From Naegleria gruberi (lineage: Eukaryota), in assembly GCA_000004985.1 (NCBI GenBank), contig GG738845.1: a stretch of 64,000 nt of DNA; one strand, written 5' to 3'. The notes under the pieces were generated by a model. The model saw nothing but the letters and a program-made list of their open reading frames with translations. It was not told the DNA's origin and ran no database searches. The stretch's first letter is position 1; the number at the start of each line of letters is the position of its first letter. This document shows, piece by piece, positions 3,086 through 25,113 of this stretch. A program made the translations under genes and the position numbers.

Positions 3086-4048
3086 CTATCCTTTCTGCAC
3101 TCTGTACTGTTGATATTGCAAAATAACAGACACCAATTGCCAAAATGAAAATTCTGGCCAATACAGAGAAGAAATATAAATCATGGATTTTTCGCACTGC
3201 CACGTCAAGAAATCTGACAATCTCATCTCTCCACTTGTTCTAACAATAATATCAGGTTCACTTGTAGTAAGGAAATACTTGTCGAGTAGTTTAGTTTCTT
3301 CCTCTATTACTATCGACTTTTTTTTCTCCTCATTTGATAAATCTTTGTTGCTGATCTTATCTGAAATGTAATTGGTGATAGCATTTTCGATTTCATAGGT
3401 TGATGTATATGGACAACATAAATTCAATATAAGAGCATCATTACCATATTTTGAATTAATTTTGTAAGAATAGTCCATGGCTCTTTGGGCACTATCTTGA
3501 ACATATTGTGGAAATCTGTTGAAATCTCCTAAAACTCGTAAAATTACCTTATACTTGATTATGAAAGATTTCTTTTTTGTGACCATGTCTTTAAATCTTC
3601 TATCCATTAGATCCATAATATTGTCAACCTCCTGTTTATCCCTTTTAAAATTATCAATCGAAAAAGCATAAACAGTAACAGTTTTCACACCCAACATTTC
3701 ACACCAATTTAGACATTGTTTCAGTTTCTTATATCCGGAACGATGACCCTCTTTGATTGGAATATTCTTTTTAGTTGCATACCTTCTATTACCATCCATA
3801 ATGAAGGCTATGTGTTGTGGAAGCAAATCATTAGTCTTTGGGTCGTATCGTAAAATTCTAACAATACATGTTATTATTAATTCATAAAACCATGTGAACC
3901 ACGAAACTATTACTTGAACAAAAGATTTTTGTTTTTTAATAATCCGAGAATTGTTTCTTTCCGAAATTTTATATTCATTCATTGAGGATTCCAAATTACT
4001 ACTTGTACTACTATTATCATTCCAAGTCATATTAAGCAATAAATTCAT
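3086..4048 (-). CDS. DHDDS: Dehydrodolichyl diphosphate synthase (cis-prenyltransferase, Rer2/DHDDS family)
   Basis: The true ATG is at 4048; the track start at 4051 is TTG. An N-terminal TM helix precedes the UPP-synthase motifs HIAFIMDGNRRYA, VYAFSIDNFKR and RTSGEMRLSDFLTWQ. It is a single exon. Confidence 0.88.
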   Translation of the reverse strand: MNLLLNMTWNDNSSTSSNLESSMNEYKISERNNSRIIKKQKSFVQVIVSWFTWFYELIITCIVRILRYDPKTNDLLPQHIAFIMDGNRRYATKKNIPIKEGHRSGYKKLKQCLNWCEMLGVKTVTVYAFSIDNFKRDKQEVDNIMDLMDRRFKDMVTKKKSFIIKYKVILRVLGDFNRFPQYVQDSAQRAMDYSYKINSKYGNDALILNLCCPYTSTYEIENAITNYISDKISNKDLSNEEKKKSIVIEEETKLLDKYFLTTSEPDIIVRTSGEMRLSDFLTWQCEKSMIYISSLYWPEFSFWQLVSVILQYQQYRVQKG

Positions 4049-4128
4049 CAAAAAACAAAGTGTTTGTATTTTTTTTTGTTTTTTATTTCGGACTTTATTT
4101 TGGACACGTTTTCCAATACTGATGTGAC

Positions 4129-7100
4129 CTAGTTGTGTTTGTTTTTTTTGGAATGTGGCCTAATATTGTTGTCTATTGGTTTTCTCTTCTTAGTGAGAAT
4201 GGTACGAATGGTTGGACCACTATTCTCTAAAACCTTATCAACAAGTTGTTCTTGCCCGTTGTGGAGAAATGAGTGTATAACTGGATTATAGTCTTGTTTG
4301 AAATGCAATACAGACCACTCTATGAAAATTATTATTAAATTGGGAACGGACATTGCTGTTGTGGTAAAATCTCTAACAAGTGTTTCAAAAAAACCAAGTA
4401 CTTCATCACGTTCATGATTTGCAAGAAGATTTGTTCTATCAAATACCTCAGTAATGATGAAAGATAACTTTTTTGAAAAATTTTCACAATTGCCAGCTTG
4501 GTTGATTAATATTTTCAATCCATCTAGAAACCAAGATTTAGAATTTTGGTCTGATTTTGTTGCCAAATAAATTTCTAATTCTCTATCACACATTCTTAAA
4601 ATTGAGAAGAAATCTGTAGGCAAGCGTGTCAATATATTAGTGCTAAGATTTGCTAATTCCACAAATATATTTCTCATGACAGAGTTCAAGTCTTCCTCAT
4701 CCCTCATAAAGTGGTTGAATATTATGCTCTTAATATGATCAGATAAATTATGAATCACTGATGCAAGATCTGGTAGCCAATATATCCAATACTTCAGTTC
4801 TAACACCTCACAAAGAGTTTTGGAAGCTAGTAAGTTATTTGTTAAAATGCTGGAAAACCATAGAAATTCTTGATTCGATAACATTTTAAATTGACCAGTA
4901 TGGAAGAGTAATGCCAATCTCTGTAGAAGAGGAGGAAATTTCTCATTTTGTTTTGCCATATTTATGGAGAATACTCGATTTTCTCCAATGATTTGGCAAA
5001 TAGTCTTTAAAAAGGGAACAATATTTTGAGAAGAGTCTTTCCATTTGATCACTTTACAAGTTATGCCATCAAAAACAATGTTTAAAAAGTTAACGTGATC
5101 CCTAGAGTGTAAACTTTTGAAAATCACCTCTAAAATTTTTCCAAATCCATCATAACTCTTTTTCTGTGAGCATTCCACAAATATCTCCCTGCAAACTATT
5201 CCCAAATCCTCCAACAAGAACACATCTCTATATTTTTCTATTATATCCGAAAGACATCTGTTGAAGGTACTACTTTGGGTTATCATTCCAGCTCTTACCA
5301 ATTGTCGAGTTAGAGAGGAAGAGTCTATAAGAGTGTTGGACTCTATGAGCTCAAAAACAAACTTTCTAATCTCAAATGGATTTTGCTCTGCAATCTCTTT
5401 TTCCATTATAATTCTGAAAGAAAAACAGTTATGAAAAGGATGAACCTGGGGTAGATTGATTCTTAGGAAATTTAGCAGACCCAAAGATTTGATAGAGAGT
5501 TTTGTTTGGAATTCTTTAAAACGTTTTAACATTTTTTCAGAATTTTCGCAGAAGAATTGTAAAAATTCTATAGGTCTGTTGGAATACATTTCTAAAATGG
5601 ATTCTAAAATTGTATTCTCAGAAGTTGGATCAATAGGTTGAGATTTGGAATCAGAGAGGTAAAACTTGGAAAGAATGGATAGTCGTATTGAATTTGCGAC
5701 TGGTCCTATCGATTCTTCTTCAATTGATTCAAGGGGAGATATGATACATTGCCTAGCATGCGTTGAATCCTCTAAAATTATTCTCTCTTCAATTGTTGAT
5801 AGTAAAGGTATGGTAAACTTGTTTTTTTGCAAGAGGGATTTAAGCCATGTTTGAAAGTTGAATCTTAAAATACAATCAGAAGAATGATTGGTTATAACTT
5901 ACTTAATGGATTTCGAATAATGAAATAATGTAGCCCAGTACATGCAATTGTGGATGTAAAATCGTGATAAAGTATTGGAAGTTATGTTCGGATGTAAAAA
6001 TAAAATATTATCTATTATATCAATGAATGAATTTTCATCCCTAGTATCTGATAAAAGTTGTACAAATCTATTTACAAAAATGTCATTATCTTGTCTGACC
6101 ATAAAAATAAAACCAGAAATTTTCAATTGTTTTGAATGAAGGAAATGTTGCTGAGAAATTCTAAAGCAAATCTTGGCCAAAAACCTTTTAAAAAATGATT
6201 TCTCACATGCCTTGTATACCAATAGCACTTTTTCTATCAATTCTTTTTTAAATTCGTCAGAATATAGTAATAATATGAAAATGGTAGCTGTTAAATCTTC
6301 TACAATATTATAAGGTATATGTTTAGTAGCCTCACCAAATATAAAGCTATTATCCTTACTGATAAATGAATAATCAATTTCAGGCCGTGAATTGAATATC
6401 TTTAACAAATCGAATAACTTTGTTGATGGCAACTCCTGAAAAATAAACCGTTGAACCAAATTACTTATTGTGAAATTATTAATACAGTGAATACTAGCAA
6501 TGCAATCCCAAACATCAAAAAGATCTTTTTTTTCGAGAGGAGTCATTTCTAAAAAGAGGCGAAGGAATTTTGCAATGTTCTCCATGATTTTAAGTAGAAT
6601 TGACTCGCTAGTACTCGACTCTTCCAGACTTGTAAATTCTATCTGGGTTGGCATTGAGAAAACCATTGATGAATTTTGAATTAATAAATTCAATTCCATA
6701 CTACAGTTTTTCAATATGGTCGCTAAACTTTGAAAGTTATAAATATTGAATTGTTTTGAGGTATTAGACACAAAGGTAAAATCGATTAGGTTACATTTTT
6801 CAAGTTCGTCAAAAAATTGCTGTAGAATTCCTCTACCAAAAATATAATTAGATTCTGTGCATAAAATCATGTCAGTCACATTATGGTATTTTTTCATTAA
6901 ATGTGAGGCTATTCTTTCAGAAATAAAGCCAATGCTAATTAATTTATCCTCCTCTGATGTGTCAAGAAAGAAAAAGGTAAGCCTTCTTTGTTGACTGCAT
7001 ACTTCAAATAATGAATAATTTTTGAATTTTGGATTAATAAATCTATGAATATCATTCTCAATCTTATCCAGAAAAGTATGCTCAAGTAATAGAAAAATCC

Positions 7101-7641
7101 AAGTGTTCATACTAAAAAAACTTTCTCCACCCAAACTTGAAATTCCACTATCTGATAAATCTCCAAACATGATTAATTCCTCTTCCAAAACTTGTTTAAC
7201 TGAAAGATGAAATATATTCAATTGTTCCAATAAAACTTCTGTAATTCTATCCTTTAGAATAGTTTCTAAATATTTAAACGAATTTTGCTTGGCATTTTTC
7301 GAAATGGAAAAGTATAATGTTGTAAACAAGCTCATAAAAATGTCAAACCACAACATTTTGTGATTAAATATTATTTTCTTATAGATTTCATCTAGATTGG
7401 CTGACGATTTGCTTGTTTCATTGAACAGTCTCGCAAGATATTCAATAAATAATTTTGAAATTGATGAGAACAATATCGGAAATTTGTGCATGTAGTAATT
7501 CAAATTTTGCCATTGTGTATGTGATAAATCTAAATAATTGGAAGATGAATCCCGTTTAATAGCCTCTTCTATTCCCTTCCAAATTATTTGAAAGGTGTGG
7601 AAAGCCTTTATATGTGTGGAAGACATGACGGTAATCAACAT
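4129..7641 (-). CDS. Large (~1157 aa) leucine-rich alpha-helical protein of unknown function; 2 exons joined by a 39-nt intron
   Basis: The exons are 7641..5903 and 5863..4129, separated by the intron 5864..5902 (gtaagttataacc...attttaag). The phase is consistent: the exon ends in AA, the next supplies A to give K, and the frame continues into track ORF 4129..5832. The track 'M' at 5832 is TTG. The start is ATG 7641, or possibly 7626. I recognised no domain. Confidence 0.55.
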
Positions 7642-7705
7642 GAAAACATTTTTTGCTTCAATTCTAAAAATAAAACATAATTGCGAATAAATAATAACAA
7701 AAAAA

Positions 7706-8028
7706 ATGGCCAACGATAAGAAGGTTGATAACGAAGTGGAAAACAAAGTCGATGAACAAGATGTTTTGGAAGATGATGACTTTGAGGAATTTGAAGATGA
7801 AAGTATGTATTATTAATAGTAAAAATCAACAAAAATATGGTCCGATCTTGAATGATTGCTTAATAATTTTTATTATTTAATTGTAATACAACAGAATGGG
7901 ATGTAAACCAAAAGGAAGAACAAGAACAATTAGAATGGGAAGAAGATTGGGACGATGAAGATGTGGACGATTTTTCGAAACAATTACGTGAAGAACTCAA
8001 ACGACACGAAATGCAAGACGATCAATAA
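7706..8028 (+). CDS. SEM1: 26S proteasome complex subunit DSS1/Sem1 (2 exons)
   Basis: Exon 1 is 7706..7802 (MANDKKVDNEVENKVDEQDVLEDDDFEEFEDE), the GTATGT intron is 7803..7894, and exon 2 is 7895..8028 (KWDVNQKEEQEQLEWEEDWDDEDVDDFSKQLREELKRHEMQDDQ*). It is an acidic ~77-aa protein. The conserved Trp residues and the DDFxxQLRxEL tail are typical of DSS1. Confidence 0.8.
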
Positions 8029-8180
8029 TTATTTATTCATTAAACAGTCACCATTTACAACCCATTATCATTCCCTCCATCCCTAATACTCTTCTGCAAT
8101 AATTCTATCATTGTAGATGTGCTTTATATTCCATTGTAAAAATAAAAACAAATTGCTTATTTGTAATGTTAATAAAAAAT

Positions 8181-10454
8181 TTATTGTTTTGTTAGAGCAG
8201 TAAACAGAGATTCAGCTCTGGAGTAATAACTCTTTTTGGAAACTGAAGAAGGTGATTGCATCGGAGAAGCCGATAATGGAGAAGATGTTAAGAAGCTAGA
8301 AGTCTTAGAACTGAATGGTGAATAGCTTAATGAAGAAATATCTCTTTCTGGTGTGTATGGAAGTTTGTCAGAAGGGGATTTGAAGGCGTCAAACTTTTCA
8401 GCTGAACCATTAATCTTGGAATTGATTAAATTGAAATTAACACCCATTCCAATAATATTGGTTGTAACAGGAGTACTTGTAATTGAGGAGGATCTTTGAG
8501 GTTGAGGAGTAATACTAACGTCATCAGTAAAATCCAATCGCTTACCAAATCCTTGCTTTCTTTCTCTACCAGTTATTTGGTTTTGAGGAGTGGATGGACT
8601 GAAAAGATATGATGGGCTTCCAAAACTATTGTTAATTGGGGATTTCTTTTTTGGAGTATTAATATTTGAGCCAGTTGGACTATCAGATTCGCGTTTACGT
8701 TTTCTTAAAATGGAAGGAGAATTAAATTTGAGTGGAGACATGAAATCTTTTGAAGGTGAAAAGAATGGAATATGTTTTGAAGGTGTTTTGGATGGACTAA
8801 ACAGAATGGAATTTCTATCATGTTTAGGACTGGAAAACATTTCCTCAAAACTGAAGGAAGAATTTAAATTTGAAGTATCATGCTTACTTGGGGAAGGAGC
8901 CATGGCAATATCATAATGTAAATTATTTGGATAAACATCAGTGCTCATTTCTGGGTTGTATGTTGGTGGTTGTACAAGAATTGAATTATTCGCATCATTG
9001 ACTGGTTGAATTTCAACAAATAATGATTCTCCATAACACTCATTTTGAGGTTCATCATACTCAATCAAAGAAGGTGCAATATCAACAACTGATCCTTCAG
9101 CTGTAGTAATAGTCTCAGTAACTGTTGTTTCAACTTGTTGTGGAGCCACTGTAAGTGACACCATTGGAGGAATAGTTGGTGGTACAGAACTGGATGGAAA
9201 AGTGGATGGAATTTGTGGAGGTTGTGATTTTGGTGGCAACTCATTGAGTTGATCTGTTTTCTTAGATTTTCTTCTCGTGTATTTTCTCTTTGGTTTGGCA
9301 TTAGGATCTATGAGAGGTGTTGAGCAAGTGGAAGTTGTTGTGCTATTTGTTTGACTGGATACAATTGAAGTTGTACTAGCTTCTGAAACTGTATCTAAAC
9401 CATCGTCAGACTTTTTCTTAGCAGCACGTCCTCTAGGTTTTGTTGGTGGAAGACCTTCTTTTTCTCTTCGTTCCCTTTCCATCTTTCTTCTCATTGTTGA
9501 ATTCCAATGATTCTTAATGGCATTGTCAGTTCTTCCAGGTAAAAGTTTAGCAATTTGTGCCCATTTGTTACCATAATCTTTATGTGCTTGATAAATGATA
9601 CGATCTTCTTCCTCAGTCCATGGTCCTTTGTTGATATCTGGATTAAGATGATTGTGCCACCTTTCACGACATTGTTTACCAATTCTTCCAGGTAAATGTT
9701 GAGCAATGAGTGACCATTTTTTGGCACCATACTTTTTAACTAATTCGACAACTTGATTGTCTTCCTCCTGGGTCCATGGTCCTTTGACAACTTCAGGATT
9801 CAAAACTTTTTGCCATCTGTGAAGACATTGAACATCAGTTCTTTCAGGGAAATGTTCGGCGATCTTCTTCCAATTTTTGGCTCTATGATGCAAAACAGCA
9901 GCCTTTAATATTCTGTCTTCTTCTGGTGTCCATTTTACTTTGGATTTGTCCCTTATAAGAATTAGCTAATAATCTTCTGATTTCACTTACTTTTTAGAAC
10001 AAGTACTCTCTCCTTCCGATTCATCAGTACTTTCGGATGGATCAGCTTCGTCATCGGAAACAGCATCTTTAGACTTGGATGTCGACACGATGATTGGGGT
10101 ATTCATTTTCAAGGGTGTATCTGGAGAAATAGAAGCAACAATACCACTCGGTGGAATTATTCCTGTTGCACTTGTATATGGAGATGAATAATTGTTATGG
10201 ATATTAATTTCTGAGAGTAATCCTGAGTGATGATGAATTGTTCCATTGAACATTAAAAATTGTTTAGTGCCATTTGAATCGGTGGATGGGACAAGTGGAG
10301 AAGGATGATGTGGATCCATCATTGGAGGATATGGGGTTGTTGGAGTTGAATATAAAACAGGATTTGTAGTGCTTGTACTTGTGGAAGGAGGAGGGTTAGT
10401 TGGGTTTTGAAGAAAAGCAGAGTTAGGTTGTTTCTTTGTTGTGTTAGGGTTCAT
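8181..10454 (-). CDS. c-Myb-like transcription factor with R1-R2-R3 Myb repeats (2 exons, ~744 aa)
   Basis: Exon 1 is 10454..9991 and is S/T/P-rich and acidic, ending ...ESTCSKK. The intron is 9952..9990 (39 nt, gtaagtg...cttataag). Exon 2 is 9951..8181. The junction restores Myb repeat R1: [50 protein letters not shown]2 and R3 follow: [24 protein letters not shown] and [24 protein letters not shown]. Confidence 0.88.
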
Positions 10455-11417
10455 GATGATTGTTTCGATCAGAGAACTTGTGTTGACTTTGAATTATGGC
10501 AGTAACGATATTGCAAGAGGAAGGAAATATTGAATTGGCTTCCGTGATTGGCTATAAAGCAGAATACAAGAATATATTTGTTGAAAGGATTTGATGAAAT
10601 ATTAGATTGCAATCATTTGATATAATTTAATATTACACAAGAGTAGGAAGGTAAGCATCATAAGAAATCAAATACAAACCTCTTTTTAAAGAAAGGTCAA
10701 GTTGTTGCCGACCTTGTAACAAACAAGATAATTCCAAGTAGATGATGTCTAATTTTGTATCCACAACTCACCTATGGTTGTGAATGGATGATGCTATAGT
10801 AAAGAGGAATTAATTTAATAAAAACTTTGAAATTTTAGGCTTGATAGAGACTACCTAACATACGCTTGTAAGTCTCGTGCTGGATGCTGTGGAAATTTTT
10901 TTGGAGTGGTTGAACAAGTGATTTATTTTGGCGCAAATTTTTTTTAACGGCCGTTACAATAACGTTCATTTTTTCAAATGCTTGTTGTATCTAACACAGA
11001 GAAAATATCAACGCTAGTCATTTCTTCCTAATCACCTCTGTAGTATTAAACAAAGTTCTTGAAAAATAAGAATTAGATCCTCTTCACAATTCTGCCTCTT
11101 TATCTAACCATTCCTTCCCTAATTGACAACTGTTGTGTGGGGGTTATACTCTTCTTTTTTCGTCTTGAGCAGAATAAACTTTTTGAACAGCAAGCATAAT
11201 ACTATAATTGCTTGCAAATTAATGCTGAAGCCAATGGTGATATTTTAATTCCATCGCATGATGTGTTTCACATGCATATCATTATTATGTTTTTTTTTGT
11301 GGATTTTCTTGCAACATTTTTTAATTTCTTATTGAAACGATTATTTTTCGCGCCAAAACGGTCAGTTATGTCTCGACAATTGATTATTCCAAATTCGTTG
11401 TTTCATGAAGTGATAAT

Positions 11418-12704
11418 TTATTTCGTTGTTCTACGTTTCATTGGAAGGAGTGTTTGTTCTTGATTATTCATTTCATTAAACATAATTTTAGCAAAATTGG
11501 AGCATTCTGAAATATATTCTAACTTCCCATCAGTTTGTTGGACCTTAAAGTCAACCACCCTCTTTTTTCTTTTTGGGAAATAGTCACTTTCTGATGGGTC
11601 ACTAACAATCTCTACATAGTTTTGGATAATATCTTGCTCGATTAATGATTCATTTTGTGTTGAAATAATGTTTGCTCTAAATTTCAAAGTATTAATAATT
11701 TCTGTTACTTTTTGATTCAAAATAGGTTGGGTAGGGCTAAAAATTTTCCCAAGACAATATAAATCATCTCCCCAAATCATATCTTCAATTGTAATTATAT
11801 TAATTTTCATGCATTCTCTCAATAAATCTCCAACAAGATCATTGAAAAATAAATTGGGGAGACCAAGGAAAAAATCAACCACTAACACCTTATAAACTTT
11901 CATAAAAAGTTCAGCAGATAACAAATCCTCAATGGAAAAAGAAATGATTTCCTGTTCTTCAAATTCAATTCTTTTAAGAGAAGACACCATTTTCGAAAAA
12001 TCTTCTTGAGTGAAATTTAACAATTTGTAACAATAAGAATCTCTTAGAGTATAATCAATTCTATCTGCACAAAGCATTGGAAAATCCTTTTCCAATAATG
12101 TGTAAGTGTCCAGTTTTAAATTTTCAACAACATCTTGCATGTTAAATTCTTTCAAAATATCCATAAGGGAGAGAGAATTTCCAATATAATTAATAAACTT
12201 ATCATTTGGAGCTTGAATAATGTTATCCAAAATAGTTTCATGGAAATCATCTTTTCTATTTTCCAAAATAATATCAACCAAGTGGCTAAAAGCTGTATGT
12301 GAAATGTCATGTAGTAAACCAGCTAATTGTTGCTTGTGATCTGTTGGGCTGAGTTTTCTAATCAGTAACATAACCCCAATGGAGTGTTCCAATCTTGTGA
12401 CGTTATACTTGTGAGTATTCCACAAGAAGAAGCCTCCTGCTTGATGAATTTTATCTAATCTTCTGATAGCACTGCATTTAAACAACAGGGAATGCAATAA
12501 TTGGGAAAATTTATAATCTCGTGTAAAGTCAAAAGAACCGTAAACAGGATCCTGTATTGTCAAAATTATATCATCAGTATGAGTAATTAAAGTTTGACGT
12601 TTTTGATCAACATCTCCAACAACTTGGTTCGACGAATAATTGCCAAAGTCGCCGAGAGCAGTAATCTGTGTTCCATTCATTTTTTTTACAGATTTTTGCA
12701 TCAT
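11418..12704 (-). CDS. HD-domain phosphohydrolase, SAMHD1/dGTPase-like (COG1078 family)
   Basis: The start is ATG 12704 (MMQKS). It carries the HD motifs RLEHSIGV, GLLHDISHTAFSH and LCADRIDYTLRD. It is a single exon. The start lies only 20 nt after the LSG1 stop. Confidence 0.7.
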   Translation of the reverse strand: MMQKSVKKMNGTQITALGDFGNYSSNQVVGDVDQKRQTLITHTDDIILTIQDPVYGSFDFTRDYKFSQLLHSLLFKCSAIRRLDKIHQAGGFFLWNTHKYNVTRLEHSIGVMLLIRKLSPTDHKQQLAGLLHDISHTAFSHLVDIILENRKDDFHETILDNIIQAPNDKFINYIGNSLSLMDILKEFNMQDVVENLKLDTYTLLEKDFPMLCADRIDYTLRDSYCYKLLNFTQEDFSKMVSSLKRIEFEEQEIISFSIEDLLSAELFMKVYKVLVVDFFLGLPNLFFNDLVGDLLRECMKINIITIEDMIWGDDLYCLGKIFSPTQPILNQKVTEIINTLKFRANIISTQNESLIEQDIIQNYVEIVSDPSESDYFPKRKKRVVDFKVQQTDGKLEYISECSNFAKIMFNEMNNQEQTLLPMKRRTTK

Positions 12705-12724
12705 TCGAGTTAACTCATTGACTT

Positions 12725-14949
12725 TTATTTCATAAACTTCTTGAGGTATGTAAATTTTCTTCTCTTTTGTTTTTCAGTGAGCTTTTCGTAAGGTGATTGA
12801 TTATCAACAGGTTGTTCTTCTGGTTTTTGTTCAACAAGAATGGTTTGTTCATCCAATTCAAATGGATCATAACCTTTGGCTTGAATGATCTTTTCCTTCT
12901 TTCTCTCAAGAGACTCGGTATGAACATTGACACGATTGAAATCATCAATTTCACCTTCCCATTCCATTTCGTCCTCAGATTCTTCTAATGTAGCCTCTTC
13001 TTCTTCATCAGAGTTGTAAATGTCTTCTTCGTCATCATGATATTCTCCTTCTTCTTCGTCTTCACTTTCTGTAAAGTATTCACCATCGTCTTCCAATTCT
13101 TCATCATGATTAATGACAATGATTTCATCATTATCATTAAGCATTCCTTCTGATTGTATCTTATCATTTTCTTCCAAATCATCAACTTGAATATTTTCAG
13201 GAGGTGCATGGCAATACAGAATTTTACCATCTATGTAATCTTTCAAAATACGACGAGCAGCTGTTGGATAGTTGGGCACGAAATTCTTGGACATCAAACT
13301 CTTTGCAATACAAAAAGTCTTAAGTAAATTTTCTGGAGTAACAAATGTCATACGTTGTTTTCCAGGAAGTTTTGGGAACGACAAACCATATGTAAGTTCG
13401 AAAACACGTCTAGGAACACGACAACAAACCAATTCTATTGGTGGAATGTGATCTCTCATTTGGTGATCAATTGAAATAATACCATTTACAATCATTTCTT
13501 CCTTGGTTGTTGTAATTGATGGGAAAACTAGACCTGGACAGTCAGCAATCATTATACTTTCACCAATTGGAAGTGTTTGGAAATGTTTTGTTTTACCTGG
13601 AGTGGAACCAACTGCAACCTTCTTTTTACCACATAACACATTTACAAGTGATGATTTACCAACGTTTGGATAACCGACCATACCAACAACAACTCTACCA
13701 ATGTCACTCTTCTTATTTTCAGGATTGAACTTATTCATCAAACTCTTAAAGAAGAATAACAATTCAGATCTATCAAAAATATATGTCCAATCTTTTTCTT
13801 GGGGATTTTCATAATTAGTAGTATCGAATGAATCTAGTTCCTCTTGTTGTTCTTTTAAAAGATCTTCTCTGGTAATTTGACGATTTGCAATTTTAGAAAT
13901 TTCATTCAAAGCAGAGAAGAAGATAAAGTTAATCTTCTTCTTTTTAAAGTAGCATGCCCATTTGAATCTTTGCTTTTTTGTAAGCAAATCAGCCTTATTC
14001 AAAAGTAAAAAGTTTTCCTTTGATGAATCAACCTCTTTCACATACTTTTCTAAATCTTCACTTTGAAATAATAATGGATTACGAGAATCTACAATTTGAA
14101 TAACAATGTCACTTCTCTCCACAACACGCCATAATTGTCTCCAAACTTCAATGTTCTTTTCATATGGTGTGAGTGTAGCATCATAACTTTCTTCAATCTC
14201 TGCCAAATTTCTTCTCCACTTTAAGAATGATTCGGTTTCAAATTGAATGAGTTTCTTCTTTGCTAGTTCATTCTTTTTTTCCTTTTTCTTCTTTTTCTTC
14301 TTTTGTTCGGGCTCAGTTGACTCTTGAACATAATTCATCAAATCATAGGCTTCCTTTGGTCTTCTAGGTATTGGTAATTGTATTCCCATTTCTTGTAATT
14401 CACGAACACGTTCATAAATTTCATCTTGTGATTTTTCCTTCAAAACCAATGTTCCTTCAGCATAGGCTTCATCGTCATCATCTTGATTTTCCTCATCTAA
14501 AATTATTTCATATTATTTAAAAAAATTATTAATCAATGATAAAACATACCATCTCCTTCTTCTTCTTCATCCCTATCAACGACATGAAATTCTCTCCGAG
14601 AGCCATCTTCATCAGTATGTATTAAAACAGTAGCACTATCTTTTTCATACTTTTTTAAGCTCATCTTGGCGTTTAACATTAAATCTTGGAGATCTGTTGT
14701 TCCAATTAAACTTTCCAATTTTCCTCTGCCTTTGTTGAGCATATTGTGCATGATATTATCTTCACGTAAAATTTCTTCTTCGATAGGAAGTTCATCGGAG
14801 CCCATGGTTACGGTTTCTTTACCCAATATTGCATCAGCAACTGGTTCTTGATGTCTATCAGAAAACACCTTGTCCTTCTTTCGGTTACGAGCTTTTAAAA
14901 TTGTTTTACCTAATCCTCCGGATTTATTCTTGGTTCTTGTTCCTGGCAT
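12725..14949 (-). CDS. LSG1: Large-subunit GTPase 1 (LSG1, circularly permuted GTPase), 2 exons
   Basis: Exon 1 is 14949..14550 (MPGTRTKNKSGGLGKTILKARN...). The intron is 14497..14549 (gtatgtttt...ttttag, 53 nt). Exon 2 is 14496..12725. A long block matches human LSG1: LKWRRNLAEIEE...WRQLWRVVERSDIVIQIVDSRNPLLFQSEDLEKYVKEVDSSKENFLLLNKADLL. The G-motifs appear in circularly permuted order: GYPNVGKSS, then DCPGLVFP. There is an acidic C-terminal tail. Confidence 0.88.
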
Positions 14950-15022
14950 TTTTTTGATTCAATTATTTACGTGAATGGAACAATTTAATGATTATACCAA
15001 TTTTTTTACTTTCTGTTGTTGA

Positions 15023-16324
15023 TCAGTGTTTTGTTGTGAGTGAAAAAGTGTGATTACATTTGAGAATTTCCTGTGTTTGCATTTGGGAAAGTCTGTTGCT
15101 TATTAAAAACACCTTTGTTCTTCCTAGAAGATCTCCTGTTGCCATTAGCATTGGATTATGTTTGTTGAACTCTAGACATGAAAGAGCCTTTCCATCTTGT
15201 GAAACGTCAATATCATTAATTGGCTCAGTTGTGGACTCTAAGAGATCGAACATGTATAGGTGTCCATTGGAGCTGGCAACAGCAACTACCATTGGACGAA
15301 ATGGAGAGAATTTAGAACAACTACTAGGATCAGTGGATGGTTGCAAAGTTAGAATATCTTTTGTTCTGAAAGCATTATATATCCTTACTAATCCGTCACT
15401 GCAACAAGACATAAATAAATCCTTATTAAAAGTATTGGCATCAAGAGTGTAAATAATTCCAGTTCCAGAGTCAAATTCAGATTCCATCTTTTCTTCCTTA
15501 AAGTTTACATTTGTTTTCTTTAAGGTAGCCATTTTTCTGGTGCTAATCATTTTAGAGTCTGATATCGATAGTTTAAACACATTTCCAACTTCTGTTCCTA
15601 AAATAAATGAGCTGTCAAGTGTTGGTGTTTTCTTTTGAGATAGGGCGCTACTGCCAAATAAATTTAAAAAACAAAGTGATGAACCACCCAAAGGAGTAGA
15701 CTTGAGTGGGCTATTCAGGGCAATCGCGTGAATAGGTTGCTCTAGCTTGTTATGTAAACTCCATAATAATATTTTTCCGTCTCCACTCATACTCAATATA
15801 AGAAATGAGTCATCATATCTATTTCTTACCCATTGAAGACTAGTTATTGGATCTCTATGGGAGTAGGATTCAATTGAGGTTTGGCAAAGAAGACTGTCTG
15901 TATCCTGATGAAGTTTGTAAACCTTAATACCTCCATCATATGTACCTGCTGCAATAATATTATGCTTATCTGGATGGAATGCTAATTTCATAACGTAACT
16001 CTCTTCGTTTTCGATTGTAACTTTTGGTTCTAGGTTGTAATCTGTATAAATATCAGGATTTATCAAAAAGAAACACATATATCCTGGATCAACACACCAC
16101 CCACTAGCCGAGGGTTTTCCAAAGCTCACACCCAACATGTTTCCTTTACAATTCCAAGATAAGTCAGTTACTGACAATGGTTCATGTAACTTTTTAATTA
16201 TTCTCTCTGGTAATTTTAATTCGTGAGCTGTTGACATTTCCTCAATATCCACAGACCAATTAACATCGTAATCAATGAACGATAAATAATGAACTGTTTC
16301 AGCGTTAATCAATTCCTTTTCCAT
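15023..16324 (-). CDS. WD40-repeat protein, dynein intermediate-chain-like (possibly flagellar); the 5' end is uncertain
   Basis: The ATG is at 16324 (MEKELINAE...). The WD repeats are GTYDGGIKVYKL, HRDPITSLQWV...SMSGDGKILLWSL, CCSDGLVRIYN, ASSNGHLYMFDL and ATGDLLGRTKVF. The frame stays open about 35 codons upstream of the ATG without a start codon, so an upstream exon is possible; the 16452..16727 ORF is a candidate for it. Confidence 0.5.
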   Translation of the reverse strand: MEKELINAETVHYLSFIDYDVNWSVDIEEMSTAHELKLPERIIKKLHEPLSVTDLSWNCKGNMLGVSFGKPSASGWCVDPGYMCFFLINPDIYTDYNLEPKVTIENEESYVMKLAFHPDKHNIIAAGTYDGGIKVYKLHQDTDSLLCQTSIESYSHRDPITSLQWVRNRYDDSFLILSMSGDGKILLWSLHNKLEQPIHAIALNSPLKSTPLGGSSLCFLNLFGSSALSQKKTPTLDSSFILGTEVGNVFKLSISDSKMISTRKMATLKKTNVNFKEEKMESEFDSGTGIIYTLDANTFNKDLFMSCCSDGLVRIYNAFRTKDILTLQPSTDPSSCSKFSPFRPMVVAVASSNGHLYMFDLLESTTEPINDIDVSQDGKALSCLEFNKHNPMLMATGDLLGRTKVFLISNRLSQMQTQEILKCNHTFSLTTKH

Positions 16325-16927
16325 TTGAGGGTAGACTTTTTTCAAGAATGTAGATATTTCTCCTTCATTGCTTGTTGTTTCATTCCTTACTCTTTTAATA
16401 ACATCCTCAATTGAGTCCGTTTGTATCTTCCCTTGTAAACATTTAAATAATTTACTTCCAACCTACTTCTTGATCGGCCACAATGCCTTGCTCCACTGAA
16501 AAATCATTACTAATACATGATGCATTGGATTGAACTCCAGAATCCTCAAAAGACAAACTCATCGTCTGTGTAGAATGGTCTGCACTCGGATTCTTTTTCT
16601 GGCCCCACTTTGAATTAAAATTGGCTCCTTGAACAAATCCGAACGAATAGAAAACTTCGTTATTTGCCTTGTTCATCTTGTATTTTTTTGTTGTTTGACC
16701 AAAAATTTGGCGCTTTTTTTTGTACAAACATCGACAATATTCACTAAACTTTTTCCAGTGGAGCTTGATTAAATTAATATGGCTCTAATTCATGTTTTGT
16801 GAGAAACCTGAAGAAAGTTCCTGACACCATTGACATCACTATCCAAAACCAGGTAAAAATGTTTTAGCCCAAGTAAAAAATTATAATTATTTATTAATTT
16901 AAAAGTAAGCTAAATGAAATTGATAAT

Positions 16928-19900
16928 TTAAACAATTGTCTTTCTAATAATTCTTCCATCTCCACCAGATGTATAGAAAAATTGAGTGCTTATCTCAGAC
17001 CATGTAACACCTTCTTGAGTGAAAAGTTTCTTCTTTGGGTGAGTGTCTGGATAAAAGTATAATTGTTTCTTTAAATTCTTCATATCCCAAACAGTTATGT
17101 GACCATTGGAGCAACCAGTAACAAAGAAATCTTCTGTAACATCAATATTTAAAACTTGAATACTGTCATGTTGAGTGGAGGTCTTTTGTAAAAAACCATA
17201 ACTTCCATCTTCTGCATCAAAGATGTAAATATCTCCCTTCTTGGTACCAACAAGTAATAGTTTATACTTGTAAGAATAGCGAAGGGCAATTGGTTCATCA
17301 TTGTTAGGGAATAAGTAATAGAACATTTTAGCATCTTGATTTGGCAAGAATAAATCCCAAATACACAATTCGCCTCCCTTTTGTGATTGTCCAATAGTTG
17401 CAATCAAACTGCCTGACTCTAAAAATGAAAAATCATTTACCTTAGTGCCATGACAATGTAAATGATAAAAGTAATGTAGACTTTCCTTGGATGCTTCAAA
17501 TCTCCATAATGTAAGATAACCTGATGTATCTGTGACACCAAATTTGTATCCAAATCTGGAGAAACGAATGTTAGTAATTGGTGATGTACCAGGTTCTCTA
17601 TAAGTTCTCAAAGCATATTGGAATCCATATTGCCACATGAATACAGAACCATCTGCACCTCCAGATATATAGAAAGGTAAAAATGGATGAGATACTAAAA
17701 CGTTGGCTGTTTGATTTCTGTCAATTTTTCCAACTTTTTTGACTGGTTGTTTAGATGGAGGAACATTTGATTGTCTTCTAAAATGAGATGCAGATGGAGT
17801 TGTAGTCGTGAAGGAAGGTCTTTTACCAACAGAAAATCTTTGTTTAAGCTTGTTCATATAAGAATTGCTTGAATCGACAGAAGACATTGGATTGGAGAAA
17901 CCAATAAACTTTTTCAAATTCTTGTTGGACATGGCTTCATCATCATTTACCGTATCTAGGAAGTCAAAAACGTTAAAGTTTGAAATGCTTGGAACTTTAG
18001 CAATAGAAGAGGACTGCTGTACAAACTTGGTATTATTTACATCCTTGGCAGCAATTTCATCAAATCGGTGGAATGATTGATCCCAAGTATTGGCTTCCTC
18101 ATCTAAAAGTTTGTCAAGTGAAGGATTTCTCTTTCTGTATCTAATAGAATGTTCAATATTAATCTCTCTAATACATTTGCCAGATGCATATGCCAAATAG
18201 CTTGGGTTATTGGAGTCTACACAGAAAGATTTGATCAATTCTTTACATTTGACAATTTCAATATCTGCAGAGAATTTCAAAACTTCATCTGATTCTGTCT
18301 TTGAGAAGTCGGAGGAAGTTTCGGTAGTGTTCTCACCACTAGCAAATTTTGCTAGACTACTATTGACGCTTACGGAACTGCTAATATTTGGTTTTGGTTT
18401 AGATGATAAATCCATCAAGTAGCTCCATAATTGTTGGGAAGTTGGATCAGACTTGAAAGTATCGAAAATCTTTTCATCCTCTAACCAATGATCACTAATA
18501 CAAGACAAGAGAAGATTTTGTTGTCCTCCAACTTGTTCCAATCCCAACTCTGGTAGAGCATGTGCCAATGAGTGGAAATGATCCTTTGACGATTGAGTAC
18601 GTTGATGCATTTTCTTTGATCCATGAGAAAGGGTTTCTACCATGCTTGATAAATTATTTCTTGTTGAGAGTGCGTTTACATCTTTCAAATTAGGAGCCCC
18701 ATGCTCAGAGACAGTGTATACTTCCATTTCTCTATATTGAAGTCGTCTTTCTAAATGGGAGCACCACAATGCAGAACATGAAAGAGCAGTTTGTGCACAG
18801 AGTGAATATTGTTGCTTATTGATATCATCCCTCTTCTTTTGGGATTGTTTGACAAATCCAGAGTAGGTTTCATCATAGGCATGTTCAATAAAATCCTTTA
18901 GAGTTGTTGTAAACTTGAACACTACAAATGCATCAAACATTTCCCAATGAAATTGCTTTTCAATTCTTTCAACATCCTCGTTTCTATCACTTCCAGATTT
19001 TGTGGTCTTGTTGTGATAGTTTTCGAGAAGATTTTTGTAATAGTCTTTCTTCTTCTCAGCTTCTTCTTTGTTAATGATCAAACCGGATGTCTTATTGACA
19101 GGAGCTTTTTTCTTTCTTTTCTCTTCTTGGTCAATTTCCTCTTGCATTGCCTTGTTTATCTTATTATCCAACATCTTTTTCTTGAATTTTTTGTGGAACA
19201 TGGCCATTCTATCGAAAAGTAAATGATAAAACTTGTCAAATACTTCTTTTCCTTCAAAGCTTGGACGAGAGGACAACGAATCTCTTTCCTTTTTATCAAA
19301 ATCTTGATGAAGAGTAAAAAGTGTGAAAAGCCCCTCAAAATCACGGTTAAAGTATAAAATTACAAACATCATTGTCTATTCAAGTTAAAAATGATCTATG
19401 TTTTTTTCAAAATACTTACTAAAAGAGTTGATGAGAGATCTGATTGTTGGTGTTCGGTAATGATTACCTTATTGCTCTTCATTCTACTGTAACAATGGAC
19501 ATATTCCTTTAGTAATCCTTCTAAAACGTTAACTTGTGATTTTCTTAATTGATTCTTGATTACAAGAGAAAGTGTGTTTTCAACTTGATAAACAAAAGAT
19601 TCCAAAATTCTAAGAATTGAACTTGGCTTGGAGCAAAGTAAACACCTTGCTGCTAATAATCCATTGACTCTTGTGAACACTTTGAGCTTTTTGATTAGCA
19701 TTTGTTTGTCAATATCCAATTTTTCAACAAGCTCATCAATATCTGTCATTATCTTCTTATGATTCTTGTCCCAGTCACTGTGGTAATTTGAATTGGTACG
19801 ATAACAACAATCATAAAGTTCTTGAGAAATGATTGTGAGGGCTGTTTTGAATTTGAGAAGTTCAGTAAGATCAGTTTGTTCTTTAGCATCCTCAATGGAA

Positions 19901-22900
19901 ATAGTGGAAGAGTTCAATTGCTGTTGTTTAGTGTTACCCATTCCCATACCACTCATTCCACCAAACCCACTCAAAGTTCCACTTGCAAGATTTCCTGATG
20001 TGCCTGATCCTCTCATGGAGTTACTCATTCCCATATTGTTCATTCCACCAAATCCACTCAGAGTTCCACTAGATAGATTTCCAGAAGCCATGGAATTACC
20101 CATTCCCATACTGCCCATACCAAACCCACTTAAAGTTCCACTTGCAAGATTGCCCGAGTTAATGGAAGAAGTCTTACTCATTGAATTACCCATTCCCATA
20201 CCACTCATTCCACCAAATCCACTTAAAGTTCCACTAGACAAATTTCCAGAAGCCATGGAATTACTCATTCCCATACCACTCATTCCACCAAATCCACCCA
20301 AGGTACCGCTAGATAAGTTGCCAGATGTCATAGAGCTATTCATACCCATTCCCATACTACTCATTCCGCCAAACCCTCCCAAAGTTCCACTTGTCAAATT
20401 TCCTGAAGTACTAGGTGTAGTTTTAGGTGTCCCAAAGGCTCCCATATTGATTTGACCAGACATTAAATCATTTTGTCCAGTTGAAGTATTCAACTTTCTT
20501 TTAGAAGTATATTGTTCCATATTTTTAAGTTTCAATAAATGTTCTAAACAAAGTGTGTAAAGTCCAACTTGGCTATAATAATGAGCAGTTCTTAATAATA
20601 TTGGAAGAGCATGCTTTGCAACAAGATCTGATGAATTCAAGTGTGGCTTGGAATCTACCTTAATACAGAATGCAAAAAGAGAAGGATCAAAAGCTTCATT
20701 CTCCTCTCCTCTCTTGATGAGTGTTTCAATGGATGTTTCATACTTTTTCAGTGTCCACAAAATAACACCTTGCATCCATACATCCTTGCTTTCAGTGTAT
20801 CGTTGATAGAGTTCATTTTCCAACATGTTCTTACAGAAATTACTATCATCACCACAATATAGACGAGCAATGAAGAAAGCTAAATCGTATTCTTTGGCGC
20901 TTTTGATGAGAATACTGATAGCGTCTTTAGGATTATCAGCAAGTAAAAAATATGCGGCAGCATAGTAATAATCCTGTCTACTAAGTAAAGTATAGGCATT
21001 CTTAGATGCTGCTACTCTACATTTTTCATCTGTGAAATCCTTATTTAAGAATTCAGCAACCTTCTCATTACCTTTGAGTTTGAAAAGTCTAGCCAATGCT
21101 CCTTTCTTCTTAATAGCCATATAATACAAAGCACATTTGGTAGGATCATTTGTTTCCTTATAAATTTCTGTTGCAAGTCGTTCAGCAACCTTTCTCAAAG
21201 AATTATTATTCATCCAGTAACAAACACCCAACTGTTCTACAAGTTTCCAACAAATATCCTCTTCTTCTGGGCAAATCATACGCCATAATGAATCCTGTGT
21301 TTCAGAAAGTAAAGCCCAAGCTATCATTGAACTGTTTACCTTTTCTATTAATAAATTATCATGCTCCGTTGATGATTTTGAAGAATCCCTCATTTCGGGT
21401 TTTCTTTTATCGTATAGAAACTGTAAATACTTGACTGTCACAAGATATCTGATACCAGCTGGATCTAAGGCTTCAGGATTTCTTTGAAGCTCAATAAAAG
21501 TGTCAACTACAGCCTGTAAGTTCATTTGCTCTATCTTTGAAATGCCAGGTAAGTGAATACTACTTTTAGAAAGGAGAGAGTTTAAATAATGGACATCGGA
21601 ATAAATGTTAATTTCTTCTTCTTCAGTTTCTGTCGGGGTTTCCTTCTTTTGGTTTTCTTCTTTGGCTATTTCTTCGTCAATATTTGTGAACTTGTCAAGG
21701 AGTGTTCTTCTCTTTTGTACAACAGGTTCTGTCTTCTTTGATTCTTCCTTTAAGAGAGAGGTCACTTTAATTGATGGAATTTCCAATAGGTGAGAATAGT
21801 CCTTGTCCTTATTTAGATATTCTTCAATTTTATCATTCTTCTTCTTTTCAACCAAATCTTCATAAATCTTCAAATGCTTAACTAAATGATGTATAATTGT
21901 CTTGATTATACTAAATCTTCCATCCATAAGTAATTCTAAAAGGAAATTTGGGTGATAGTCTACTAGTCTTCTGTGCGTAAGTAAGGATTCTGTATTAAGA
22001 GTTGGTTCAGATGCCAATTTGAAAAGAGACATTAGAGCAAGAGAATCATCATTTTGTTGAGTCTTTGTGTACACATGCAAAGATGAACCAAAAGAGGCGA
22101 TAATAGCCTTATCCTTTGTAACTGTAATTTTGGAACATGGATGACCTTTAACTGAAGGCATAAATTGTGTAACCTTTTTCCAGTATTGTTTTTGTTGTTT
22201 GATTATTCCTGGAGGTATCTTTGATTGAGTGTAGTACAATATCTTGGAATCTGTTCCAATACAAATAACAAACTGACCGTCTCCATAGCTCAACCATTCA
22301 AAATCGTGCACGAAATCACTCTCTGTATTGATAGATTGTTCTAATGTGTATGTTACATGGGATTCATTTTCCCAAATTTTTACACAACTTGAGGAAGAGG
22401 TTGTAGTAGCAATTCTAGAAACCAATTCACAGCACCTAACAGTAGTAATTGGTTCTTTTTCGGCTCTAAACTCGAACCACTTTTGTAATATGAGTTTTTC
22501 CTCATCTGTATTAATACTGGCTGTAGAAGAGCTAGAATTGGAAGTAGTGGCGGTAAATTTTCCAAGAAGACCACCAATCTTTGGTTTCGGAGGCTCTTTG
22601 ACTTCATTTTCCTGTTTTTTCAATCTTATTACAGAGACAGTACCATCCTTATTACCCAGAGTAATAACTACCACTCTTTGATTAGAAAAATACTTCTTAA
22701 TACTGGATTCATTTGATAAAGCTGTCTTACTCTCTACAGTAAAATGTTTTAAAGTTGTATATAAAATTAAATGACTTACTATGAATATCATACACAAAAG
22801 GAACTCCTTTTACACAGTCTGCACTGCAAACGATCTTTTCAAGATTTTGTTTGATAAGGGTTTTACATTCGAATTGATTTACATCATTTTGCTTTGCCTC

Positions 22901-24968: not shown

Positions 24969-25113
24969 TTTTTTTAAATAGATTTTTTAATACGTAAATC
25001 TAAAATAGGTTTATTAATTTAATAAATACCTAATTATTTTTTATTTATTTATTAAAAATATTTTTCGTCACCTTTTGCAAAGTAGATGTAATTTTAACGA
25101 AATAATTTACATT

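What the first reader, a model, noticed from the sequence alone, without database searches (positions are those of the whole stretch)
12705..12724. LSG1 stop and HD-phosphohydrolase start separated by only 20 nt on the same strand
LSG1 ends in TAA at 12725-12727 on the minus strand. The next gene's ATG-ATG is at 12704. The spacer aagtcaatgagttaactcga leaves no room for a separate promoter and UTRs. Either transcripts overlap, or the pair is co-transcribed (bicistronic or readthrough), or the HD gene's promoter lies within the LSG1 coding region.
Basis: seen in the sequence. Interest (0 to 1): 0.5.

Follow-up and report, generated by a model that had tools for sequence, protein, structure and literature searches.

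The report
Tightly packed Naegleria gene pair

Summary
The window is Naegleria gruberi nuclear DNA. The sequence facts are exact: LSG1 ends in TAA at 12727..12725 (minus strand), a 20-nt spacer follows, and ATGATG at 12704 opens the HD-domain ORF.

That ATGATG is probably not the HD start codon. Its context is poor. The third in-frame ATG (12680) has the A-run context seen at most heterolobosean starts sampled and at all four HD orthologues. In an independent N. gruberi isolate, a 1-nt insertion puts ATGATG out of frame and leaves only the 12680 ATG usable. The real stop-to-start distance is therefore about 44 nt.

The LSG1 TAA lies inside an AATAAA hexamer. This is the "dual-use" stop codon/poly(A) signal published for N. 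gruberi (median 3'UTR 22 nt), so the LSG1 mRNA should end at about 12715-12697, before the HD start.

The spacing is not exceptional. The window's 18 same-strand gaps include 15, 44, 44 and 48 nt. The adjacency is absent from the four other heteroloboseans compared.

Best reading: two separate mRNAs with ultrashort UTRs, with the HD promoter overlapping the 3' end of the LSG1 coding region. A bicistronic transcript is unlikely. Transcript ends were inferred, not measured.

The parts
14551..14949 (-). LSG1 exon 1 (ATG at 14949; codons 1-133)
   Evidence: tblastn of XP_002683481.1 (P0241) to the window, 100% identity. Start context caaaaaaATG.
14498..14550 (-). LSG1 intron, 53 nt, GT...AG
   Evidence: Gap between the two tblastn segments; the sequence reads gtatgtttt...attttag.
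12725..14497 (-). LSG1 exon 2 including the TAA stop (12727..12725). The C-terminus ...LTEKQKRRKFTYLKKFMK is conserved in Naegleria spp. and Acrasis.
12724..12729 (-). AATAAA poly(A) signal containing the LSG1 TAA stop ('dual-use' stop codon). It is created by an extra Lys codon (AAA) not present in the N. lovaniensis, L006 or Acrasis sequences.
   Evidence: Sequence. Relatives end atgTAA. AAUAAA is the N. gruberi poly(A) signal and about 11-13% of its stops overlap it (PMC11529991). In this window 7 of 24 TAA stops are in this register against 4.6% of all TAA triplets, P = 8e-5.
12705..12724 (-). The 20-nt 'spacer' of the finding. It is most likely the bulk of the LSG1 3'UTR, with predicted cleavage at about 12715-12697.
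   Evidence: Sequence. The cleavage position is inferred from the published signal-to-site distance of 15-20 nt and the 22-nt median 3'UTR of dual-use stops. It was not measured for this gene.
12710..12718 (-). ATGAGTTAA, a two-codon mini-ORF inside the spacer. It overlaps the palindrome GAGTTAACTC (12707..12716).
   Evidence: Sequence. The palindrome is not recurrent: 1 match observed against about 2 expected in the window. No function is inferred.
12699..12704 (-). ATGATG, the first in-frame ATGs of the HD ORF. Probably not used for initiation; it lies in the LSG1 3' end or the HD 5' flank.
   Evidence: Poor start context. Out of frame with the HD protein in isolate L004.
12688..12689 (-). 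Site of the 1-nt (A) insertion polymorphism between the two N. gruberi isolates.
   Evidence: Alignment of the window with ENA contig L004.
12681..12687 (-). A7 run immediately upstream of the likely HD start codon (conserved heterolobosean start context).
   Evidence: The orthologues have the same A-run.
11418..12680 (-). HD-domain phosphohydrolase CDS as re-defined here (420 aa, ATG 12680, TAA 11420..11418). The reference model NAEGRDRAFT_61357 / XP_002683480.1 (317 aa) starts at M112 of the ORF and is N-terminally truncated.
   Evidence: Pfam HD. The alignment with four heterolobosean and several bacterial homologues shows the conserved core starting near ORF residue 48, including the RxEHSxG histidine that the reference model omits. 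Accessions.
11417..11422 (-). AATAAA overlapping the HD gene's own TAA stop (a second dual-use stop).

Best explanation
LSG1 and the HD gene are two independently expressed, monocistronic genes packed head-to-tail in a compact genome.

LSG1's TAA is embedded in AAUAAA, so translation stop and poly(A) signal share the same bases. The LSG1 mRNA is cleaved and polyadenylated roughly 10-25 nt later (about 12715-12697), inside or just past the 20-nt 'spacer'.

The HD protein starts at the third in-frame ATG (12680), directly after an A7 run, which leaves 44 nt between the coding regions. HD transcription most likely initiates a short distance upstream of 12680, giving a 5'UTR of up to about 20 nt that excludes the ATGATG. 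Its promoter therefore overlaps the last part of the LSG1 coding sequence and 3'UTR.

Shown here: the coordinates, the AATAAA/stop overlap, the start-codon reassignment, the prevalence of such spacing, and the lack of conservation of the gene pair.
Inferred, not measured: the LSG1 cleavage site, the HD transcription start and the position of the promoter.
For: - Organism and genes.
- Poly(A) signal: AATAAA at 12729..12724 contains the stop. Published direct RNA-seq for N. gruberi reports AAUAAA as the signal, 15-20 nt to the cleavage site, and a 22-nt median 3'UTR for dual-use stops (PMC11529991). Dual-use stops are enriched in the window (7 of 24 against 4.6%, P = 8e-5).
- Start at 12680: context score +6.7 bits against -9.3 and -1.1; all four orthologues start at aaaaaaATG; the frameshifting 1-nt indel in isolate L004 contrasts with an in-frame 3-nt indel in the LSG1 coding sequence.
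- Ordinary spacing: same-strand gaps of 15, 44, 44, 48, 67 and 73 nt in the same window, including two functionally unrelated genes (DEAD-box helicase and UbiA prenyltransferase) 15 nt apart.
- No operon-like conservation: the HD gene follows a proteasome ATPase gene in N. fowleri and N. lovaniensis (gaps 310 and 135 nt) and has another neighbour in Willaertia. LSG1 is followed by other genes in N. lovaniensis, a further Naegleria sp. and Willaertia.
Against: - No transcript 5' or 3' ends for these two genes could be accessed. The direct-RNA paper's supplements are not held, and no exact-product transcript contigs were found.
- No positioned core-promoter motif could be detected upstream of 67 heterolobosean starts, so the promoter location is argued only by exclusion.
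- The published auxiliary elements (upstream UGUA, downstream U-rich) are not obvious around the LSG1 signal.
- The frameshift evidence rests on one metagenome-assembled contig.
- The N-termini of the N. fowleri and N. lovaniensis proteins align without gaps to the M2 position, which weakly favours an upstream start.
Confidence: 0.7

Rival explanations
1. Overlapping transcripts. The HD transcription start lies well inside the LSG1 coding region, so the HD 5'UTR contains the LSG1 3' end, the ATGAGTTAA mini-ORF and the ATGATG. The ribosome reaches the 12680 ATG by leaky scanning, or starts at 12704 in the reference strain.
For: - There is no room for a promoter in 44 nt, and transcripts initiating in upstream genes are documented in compact genomes such as Encephalitozoon cuniculi (PMC3629993).
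- In other tight pairs of this window, the upstream gene's AATAAA lies only 15-27 nt from the next ATG. Some 3'/5' overlap therefore seems unavoidable in this genome.
- ATG 12704 and 12701 have weak contexts that would permit leaky scanning.
Against: - Three upstream AUGs would sit in the leader.
- In isolate L004 the ATGATG would open a 32-codon out-of-frame uORF running across the real start, which should depress HD translation.
- That this indel is tolerated suggests the segment is not translated, and perhaps not in the mRNA at all.
Confidence: 0.2
2. One reading: the HD protein starts at ATGATG (12704 or 12701) and the intergenic distance is 20-23 nt.
For: - It is the first in-frame ATG of the ORF.
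- The annotated N-termini of the N. fowleri and N. lovaniensis orthologues align without gaps to M2 and share a T-x-[LI]-G motif at the same distance.
Against: - Context scores are -9.3 and -1.1 bits, against +6.7 for 12680.
- Every orthologue's start has an A-run and 12704 does not.
- The frameshift in isolate L004 makes this start impossible there.
- N-terminal length varies among orthologues anyway.
- The extra open frame is expected by chance (P about 0.15).
Confidence: 0.1
3. Bicistronic or read-through expression. One LSG1-HD primary transcript is made from the LSG1 promoter, and HD is translated by reinitiation or after processing.
For: - The genes are on the same strand and very close together, within a run of eight minus-strand genes.
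- Heterolobosea are relatives of Euglenozoa, which transcribe polycistronically.
Against: - A canonical AAUAAA lies exactly between the ORFs. In N. gruberi the hexamer identity is the main determinant of cleavage.
- The adjacency is not conserved in any of four other heteroloboseans.
- Heterolobosea show about 2 genes per directon and equal inter- and intra-directon spacing, so they have no polycistronic signature.
- The junction has no structured element.
- Reinitiation after a 723-codon ORF is mechanistically improbable, and spliced-leader trans-splicing is not known in Heterolobosea (both from general knowledge, not tested here).
Confidence: 0.05

Closest known systems
'Dual-use' stop codon / poly(A) signal with ultrashort 3'UTR, described for Giardia and, with AAUAAA, for Naegleria gruberi (Genome Res 2024, PMC11529991)
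   Same: The LSG1 stop TAA is embedded in AATAAA in the same organism in which this was described. The space available before the next gene (20-44 nt) matches the reported 22-nt median 3'UTR. The HD gene's own stop, six other stops in the AA[TAA]A register and three more stops overlapped in other registers (10 of 32 in the window) are of the same kind.
   Different: The cleavage site of this particular mRNA was not observed. The published auxiliary UGUA and U-rich elements are not evident here. The paper does not discuss the consequences for downstream neighbours.
Overlapping or abutting transcription units in compacted eukaryotic genomes: microsporidia and nucleomorphs (Williams et al. 2005, PNAS 102:10936, cited in PMC3629993 and PMC10815200)
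   Same: The intergenic spacers are too short to hold a promoter plus both UTRs, so regulatory sequence for one gene lies within its neighbour. 5'UTRs are very short, and a sequence signal next to the true start codon allows mis-called starts to be corrected, as done here with the A-run.
   Different: N. gruberi is free-living, with a genome of about 41 Mb by my recollection (not checked here), and its gaps range widely (15-1888 nt in this window). Actual transcript overlap has not been demonstrated for this pair. The start-proximal signal is an A-run rather than CCC/GGG-like motifs.
Polycistronic transcription units of Euglenozoa
   Same: Both show same-strand gene runs and short intra-run spacers, and both belong to the supergroup Discoba.
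   Different: A poly(A) signal and presumably a promoter lie between these genes. There is no spliced-leader acceptor evidence. Heterolobosea lack the directon signature, and the gene pair is not conserved.

Membership tests
Dual-use stop codon / poly(A) signal (N. gruberi type) | An AAUAAA hexamer overlaps the stop codon | tested here: met
   AATAAA at 12729..12724 contains TAA 12727..12725.
Dual-use stop codon / poly(A) signal (N. gruberi type) | The organism uses AAUAAA as its main poly(A) signal | tested here: met
   The window is N. gruberi (100% matches). The signal was established by direct RNA-seq (PMC11529991). The enrichment at real stops was reproduced in this window (P = 8e-5).
Dual-use stop codon / poly(A) signal (N. 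gruberi type) | The mRNA is cleaved about 15-20 nt after the hexamer, giving a 3'UTR of about 22 nt | not testable with these tools
   This needs 3'-end reads for LSG1. The paper's supplementary tables are not held.
Operon-like / polycistronic unit | Same-strand genes with a very short spacer | tested here: met
   A gap of 20-44 nt on the minus strand.
Operon-like / polycistronic unit | No 3'-end processing signal between the cistrons | tested here: not met
   A canonical AATAAA sits at the LSG1 stop.
Operon-like / polycistronic unit | The gene pair is conserved among relatives | tested here: not met
   The neighbours differ in N. fowleri, N. lovaniensis, a further Naegleria sp. (L006) and Willaertia.
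Operon-like / polycistronic unit | Single RNA molecules span both ORFs | not testable with these tools
   No transcript data were accessible.
Overlapping transcripts of compact eukaryotic genomes | The spacer is too short for a promoter plus both UTRs | tested here: met
   44 nt (20 nt at the minimum). Other pairs in the window have 15-48 nt.
Overlapping transcripts of compact eukaryotic genomes | The mRNA of one gene extends into the neighbour's coding region | not testable with these tools
   This needs mapping of 5' and 3' ends.
LSG1 (large-subunit GTPase 1) | MMR_HSR1-type GTPase domain, orthology to LSG1 and a conserved C-terminal tail | tested here: met
   Pfam MMR_HSR1 at 3.6e-18. Top named hits are 'large subunit GTPase 1'. 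The tail LTEKQKRRKFTYLKKFM is conserved.
HD-domain phosphohydrolase (PF01966) | Pfam HD match above the gathering score, with conserved H...HD...D metal-binding residues | tested here: met
   25.9 bits against a cut-off of 22. H132 and D133 are invariant, and H107 and D214 nearly invariant (at least 90%), in the alignment. Substrate and activity are unknown.

The most novel reading that the evidence does not exclude
The LSG1-HD pair (and similar pairs with gaps of 15-48 nt) might be expressed through a non-standard route. One version is genuine read-through or bicistronic RNAs in a heterolobosean. This would be a possible evolutionary precursor of the polycistronic transcription of its euglenozoan relatives. 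Another version is a single A/T-rich element (gaAATAAAAg) acting as stop codon, RNA poly(A) signal and TATA-like DNA promoter element for the downstream gene. My evidence disfavours both but cannot exclude them without transcript-end data.
Probability: 0.05. Interest if true: 0.6.

Novelty: new member of a known kind. Interest (0 to 1): 0.2.

Why it matters
Mostly as housekeeping.

- The reference model of the HD gene (NAEGRDRAFT_61357, 317 aa) is truncated and lacks part of its catalytic motif. The first-ATG model (428 aa) is probably 8 residues too long. The likely product is 420 aa.
- A simple A-run rule, backed by comparison between isolates, can fix start codons in Naegleria annotations. 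This mirrors what start-proximal signals did for microsporidian annotation.
- The pair is a clean, testable example of how far a free-living eukaryote compresses gene boundaries: stop codon and poly(A) signal share bases, the UTRs are about 20 nt, and the promoter lies inside the neighbour's coding sequence. That puts dual constraints on the conserved LSG1 C-terminal codons.

None of this changes current understanding. Dual-use stops and ultrashort 3'UTRs in N. gruberi were published in 2024.

Tried and rejected
- **Transcript evidence.** Exact-product look-ups found nothing for the 428-aa, 420-aa and 317-aa HD proteins. The supplements of the direct-RNA paper are not held. The gene ID appears in no paper text.
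- **5'-end literature.** Searches for Naegleria transcription starts and 5'UTR lengths found no mapping data.
- **Promoter motif.** Positional base composition and candidate motifs (TATA, TATAAA, A[AT]TAAA, TTGAA, CAAT, TGTA) upstream of 67 heterolobosean starts gave no positioned element other than the A-run. The idea that AATAAA doubles as a TATA-like box is therefore unsupported, and the hexamer-to-ATG distance in tight pairs varies from 15 to 49 nt.
- **Palindrome GAGTTAACTC in the spacer.** It is not recurrent: 1 match observed against about 2 expected.
- **Structured RNA at the junction.** None was found (z = +0.73). There are no Rfam or tRNA hits anywhere in the window.
- **More isolates.** Two metagenome scans for the junction found nothing.
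- **False tight gaps.** The apparent gaps at about 19372/19396 and 24310/24330 were rejected as gene boundaries. They are introns of one Rav1/DMXL-type gene.
- **First guess of organism.** I initially considered Trichomonas. It was rejected once introns appeared and the database match identified Naegleria.

Full report
**What is there**

The window is nuclear DNA of Naegleria gruberi. The HD ORF matches the N. gruberi protein XP_002683480.1 / NAEGRDRAFT_61357 at 100% identity. The upstream gene matches XP_002683481.1, 'large subunit GTPase 1', at 100% identity.

On the minus strand LSG1 consists of three parts:
- exon 1, 14949..14551
- a 53-nt GT...AG intron, 14550..14498
- exon 2, 14497..12725, ending in TAA at 12727..12725

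The next 20 nt (12724..12705) read aagtcaatgagttaactcga. ATGATG at 12704..12699 then opens a 428-codon ORF ending at 11418, which carries a Pfam HD domain.

The LSG1 stop position is genuine. The C-terminal peptide LTEKQKRRKFTYLKKFM is conserved in N. lovaniensis, another Naegleria species (ENA contig L006) and Acrasis kona.

**Where the HD protein really starts**

The reference model (317 aa) begins at M112 of the ORF. It omits a conserved N-terminal core that four heterolobosean orthologues and many bacterial homologues share, including the R-x-E-H-S-x-G histidine of the HD motif. It is clearly truncated.

The conserved core begins near ORF residue 48. The only Met codons upstream of that are M1 (12704), M2 (12701) and M9 (12680). 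Homology alone therefore bounds the stop-to-start distance at 20-44 nt. Three lines of evidence favour M9.

1. *Start context.* Heterolobosean start codons are typically preceded by an A-run; 36 of 67 starts have at least four A's directly before the ATG. A matrix built from 31 annotated starts in N. fowleri, N. lovaniensis and Willaertia, excluding the HD orthologues, scores the candidates as follows:

| Candidate | Position | Score (bits) | Percentile among all 2,408 window ATGs |
|---|---|---|---|
| M1 | 12704 | -9.3 | 20th |
| M2 | 12701 | -1.1 | 77.5th |
| M9 | 12680 | +6.7 | 99.4th |

The training median is 4.5 bits.

2. *Orthologues.* All four orthologous HD genes start at aaaaaaATG.

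3. *A natural frameshift.* An independent N. gruberi contig assembled from a metagenome (ENA ERZ929261, locus L004) is 99.84% identical to window 19218..12474 and has the same gene order. It carries a 1-nt insertion between G12689 and T12688. In that isolate ATGATG is out of frame with the HD protein and hits a stop after 32 codons, while translation from the M9-equivalent ATG is intact. The only other indel in the 6.7 kb is an in-frame GAA within the acidic tail of LSG1, as expected for coding sequence.

The open frame between the upstream stop and M9 (31 codons) is unremarkable by chance (P about 0.15). I conclude that the HD CDS is 12680..11418 (420 aa) and that the coding regions are 44 nt apart. 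I give about 0.1 to the alternative that ATGATG is used.

**The LSG1 3' end**

The stop context is atg aaa TAA a. The TAA therefore sits inside AATAAA (12729..12724).

Direct RNA sequencing of N. gruberi (Genome Res 2024, PMC11529991) established the following:
- AAUAAA is the poly(A) signal and the main determinant of site choice.
- Cleavage lies about 15-20 nt downstream of the signal.
- The median 3'UTR is 39 nt.
- About 11-13% of stop codons overlap AAUAAA ('dual-use'), and those transcripts have a median 3'UTR of 22 nt.

Applied here, the LSG1 mRNA should end around 12715-12697. That is within the 'spacer' or at the ATGATG, and upstream of the 12680 start. This is an inference; the site was not observed.

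In this window 7 of 24 TAA stops are in the AA[TAA]A register, against 4.6% of all TAA triplets (P = 8e-5). The HD gene's own stop is one of them.

The relatives' LSG1 genes end ...KKFM-TAA. N. gruberi has one extra Lys codon, and that AAA is what creates the hexamer. N. lovaniensis instead has AATAAA at +16 and +26 after its stop.

**Is the spacing unusual?**

No. I curated a gene map with Pfam, which also showed that several apparent tight gaps are introns of one Rav1/DMXL-type gene. On that map the window has 18 same-strand junctions, with gaps of 15, 44, 44, 48, 67, 73, 80, 104, 118, 134, 145, 201, 247, 251, 391, 539, 963 and 1888 nt.

The tightest junction separates a DEAD-box helicase from a UbiA prenyltransferase. 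These are two unrelated genes 15 nt apart, with AATAAA 9 nt before the helicase stop and aaaaaaATG at the UbiA start. The UbiA start is supported by 85 open codons before the next ATG (P about 0.006 by chance).

A Rho-like GTPase ending in a CAAX box (CTLL) lies 48 nt before Nop16. Two convergent genes, UbiA and a TPR protein, have stop codons only 2 nt apart.

**Is the pair a conserved unit?**

No.
- In N. fowleri and N. lovaniensis the HD orthologue follows a proteasome AAA-ATPase gene, with gaps of 310 and 135 nt.
- In Willaertia the HD orthologue has another neighbour, about 1.3 kb away.
- LSG1 is followed by a convergent gene in N. lovaniensis, by Rpn5 in a further Naegleria species (140 nt), and by an unrelated ORF in Willaertia (370 nt).

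**How it most likely works**

There are two monocistronic mRNAs. LSG1 terminates translation and specifies its poly(A) site with the same bases, giving a 3'UTR of about 10-25 nt. HD initiates translation at 12680, on an mRNA whose 5' end lies a short distance upstream.

The tolerated frameshift and the three upstream AUGs argue that the leader begins downstream of 12699, which would make the 5'UTR about 20 nt or less. With only 44 nt between the coding regions, the HD promoter must overlap the end of the LSG1 coding sequence.

I could not locate the promoter. No positioned motif other than the A-run emerged from 67 upstream regions. The spacer palindrome GAGTTAACTC is not recurrent.

Rival readings:
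- *Modest overlap of the two transcripts (about 0.2).* Some overlap seems unavoidable at other junctions in the window, where the upstream AATAAA is only 15-27 nt from the next ATG.
- *A bicistronic or read-through mRNA (about 0.05).* It is unlikely for several reasons: the intervening canonical signal; the lack of conservation of the pair; the absence of RNA structure at the junction (z = +0.73); the absence of a polycistronic genome signature in Heterolobosea (about 2 genes per directon); and, from general knowledge, no spliced-leader trans-splicing in this group.

**Comparison with what is known**

This is an instance of the dual-use stop codon / ultrashort-UTR architecture already published for N. 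gruberi. It also resembles the compaction-driven sharing of sequence between neighbouring transcription units known from microsporidia and nucleomorphs (PMC3629993 and PMC10815200, citing Williams et al. 2005).

It fails two defining features of an operon-like unit: there is a processing signal between the cistrons, and the pair is not conserved.

**Verdict**

There is no room for a promoter, so the promoter lies in the neighbour. It is partly wrong: UTRs do fit, and a bicistron is unlikely.
- The feature is ordinary for this genome.
- The useful by-products are a corrected HD gene model, a start-codon rule for Naegleria, and a well-defined locus for testing promoter-in-coding-sequence architecture.
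- Interest 0.2.

**Limits**

No transcript ends were available for either gene. The frameshift evidence comes from a single metagenome-assembled contig. All spacing statistics come from a single 64-kb window.

Noticed in passing
window 51622..51642 (+): A DEAD-box helicase (49474..51624) and a UbiA prenyltransferase (51640..52830) are unrelated same-strand genes only 15 nt apart, tighter than the pair in the finding. AATAAA lies 9 nt before the helicase stop, and the UbiA start has the aaaaaaATG context.
   Followed up: partly
window 52828..52835: UbiA (+) and a TPR protein gene (-) converge with stop codons 2 nt apart, inside gccaaaTAAatTTAtcttg. Each gene's 3'UTR must therefore run antisense into the other's coding region.
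   Followed up: partly
window 11418..12680 (-); reference model XP_002683480.1 / NAEGRDRAFT_61357: The public N. gruberi model of the HD gene (317 aa) starts at M112 of the ORF. It lacks the conserved N-terminal core, including the first histidine of the HD motif. The likely true product is 420 aa.
   Followed up: yes
window 11418..12680 (-): Outside Heterolobosea, the closest homologues of the HD protein are HD-domain proteins of about 323 aa from Bacillota (Priestia, Fictibacillus, Clostridium; 33-40% identity). The heterolobosean proteins carry extra insertions. This suggests a bacterial origin by gene transfer; no phylogeny was made.
   Followed up: no
window 12728..12730 (-); L005 8391; L006 2798: N. 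gruberi LSG1 has one extra C-terminal Lys codon (...KKFMK*), against ...KKFM* or ...KRFM* in N. lovaniensis, another Naegleria sp. and Acrasis. That AAA is what creates the AATAAA hexamer around the stop codon.
   Followed up: yes
whole window, plus loci L001-L003, L005-L008: Start codons of heterolobosean genes are usually preceded by a run of A's: 36 of 67 have at least four A's, and AAAAAATG marks about ten ORF starts in the window. This is a usable start-codon signal. No positioned TATA-like element was seen.
   Followed up: partly
window 3086..25668 (-): Eight consecutive genes lie on the minus strand: cis-prenyltransferase, an unknown gene, Myb, HD, LSG1, a WD40 protein, Rav1/DMXL and a Ras/Roc GTPase. 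This is longer than the roughly 2 genes per directon reported for Heterolobosea. It may be chance in a window of about 32 genes.
   Followed up: no
window 10455..11417: A 963-nt gap separates the HD stop from the first Myb ATG, far longer than the neighbouring gaps. It has no Rfam or tRNA hit. It may hold an unrecognised Myb 5' exon, a long leader or a small gene.
   Followed up: partly
window 49474..49540: The first-ATG models of an unknown 162-aa ORF (-, ATG 49540) and the DEAD-box helicase (+, ATG 49474) overlap head-to-head by 67 nt. At least one of these starts is probably wrong.
   Followed up: no
window about 13007 (-); L004 6213..6215: The two N. gruberi isolates differ by an in-frame GAA (Glu) insertion in the acidic tail of LSG1, and by seven substitutions over 6.7 kb.
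   Followed up: yes
window 16928..24968 (-): Four long ORFs separated by gaps of about 10-25 nt are exons of one Rav1/DMXL (rabconnectin-like) gene of roughly 2,600 codons. These gaps are short introns, not intergenic spacers.
   Followed up: partly
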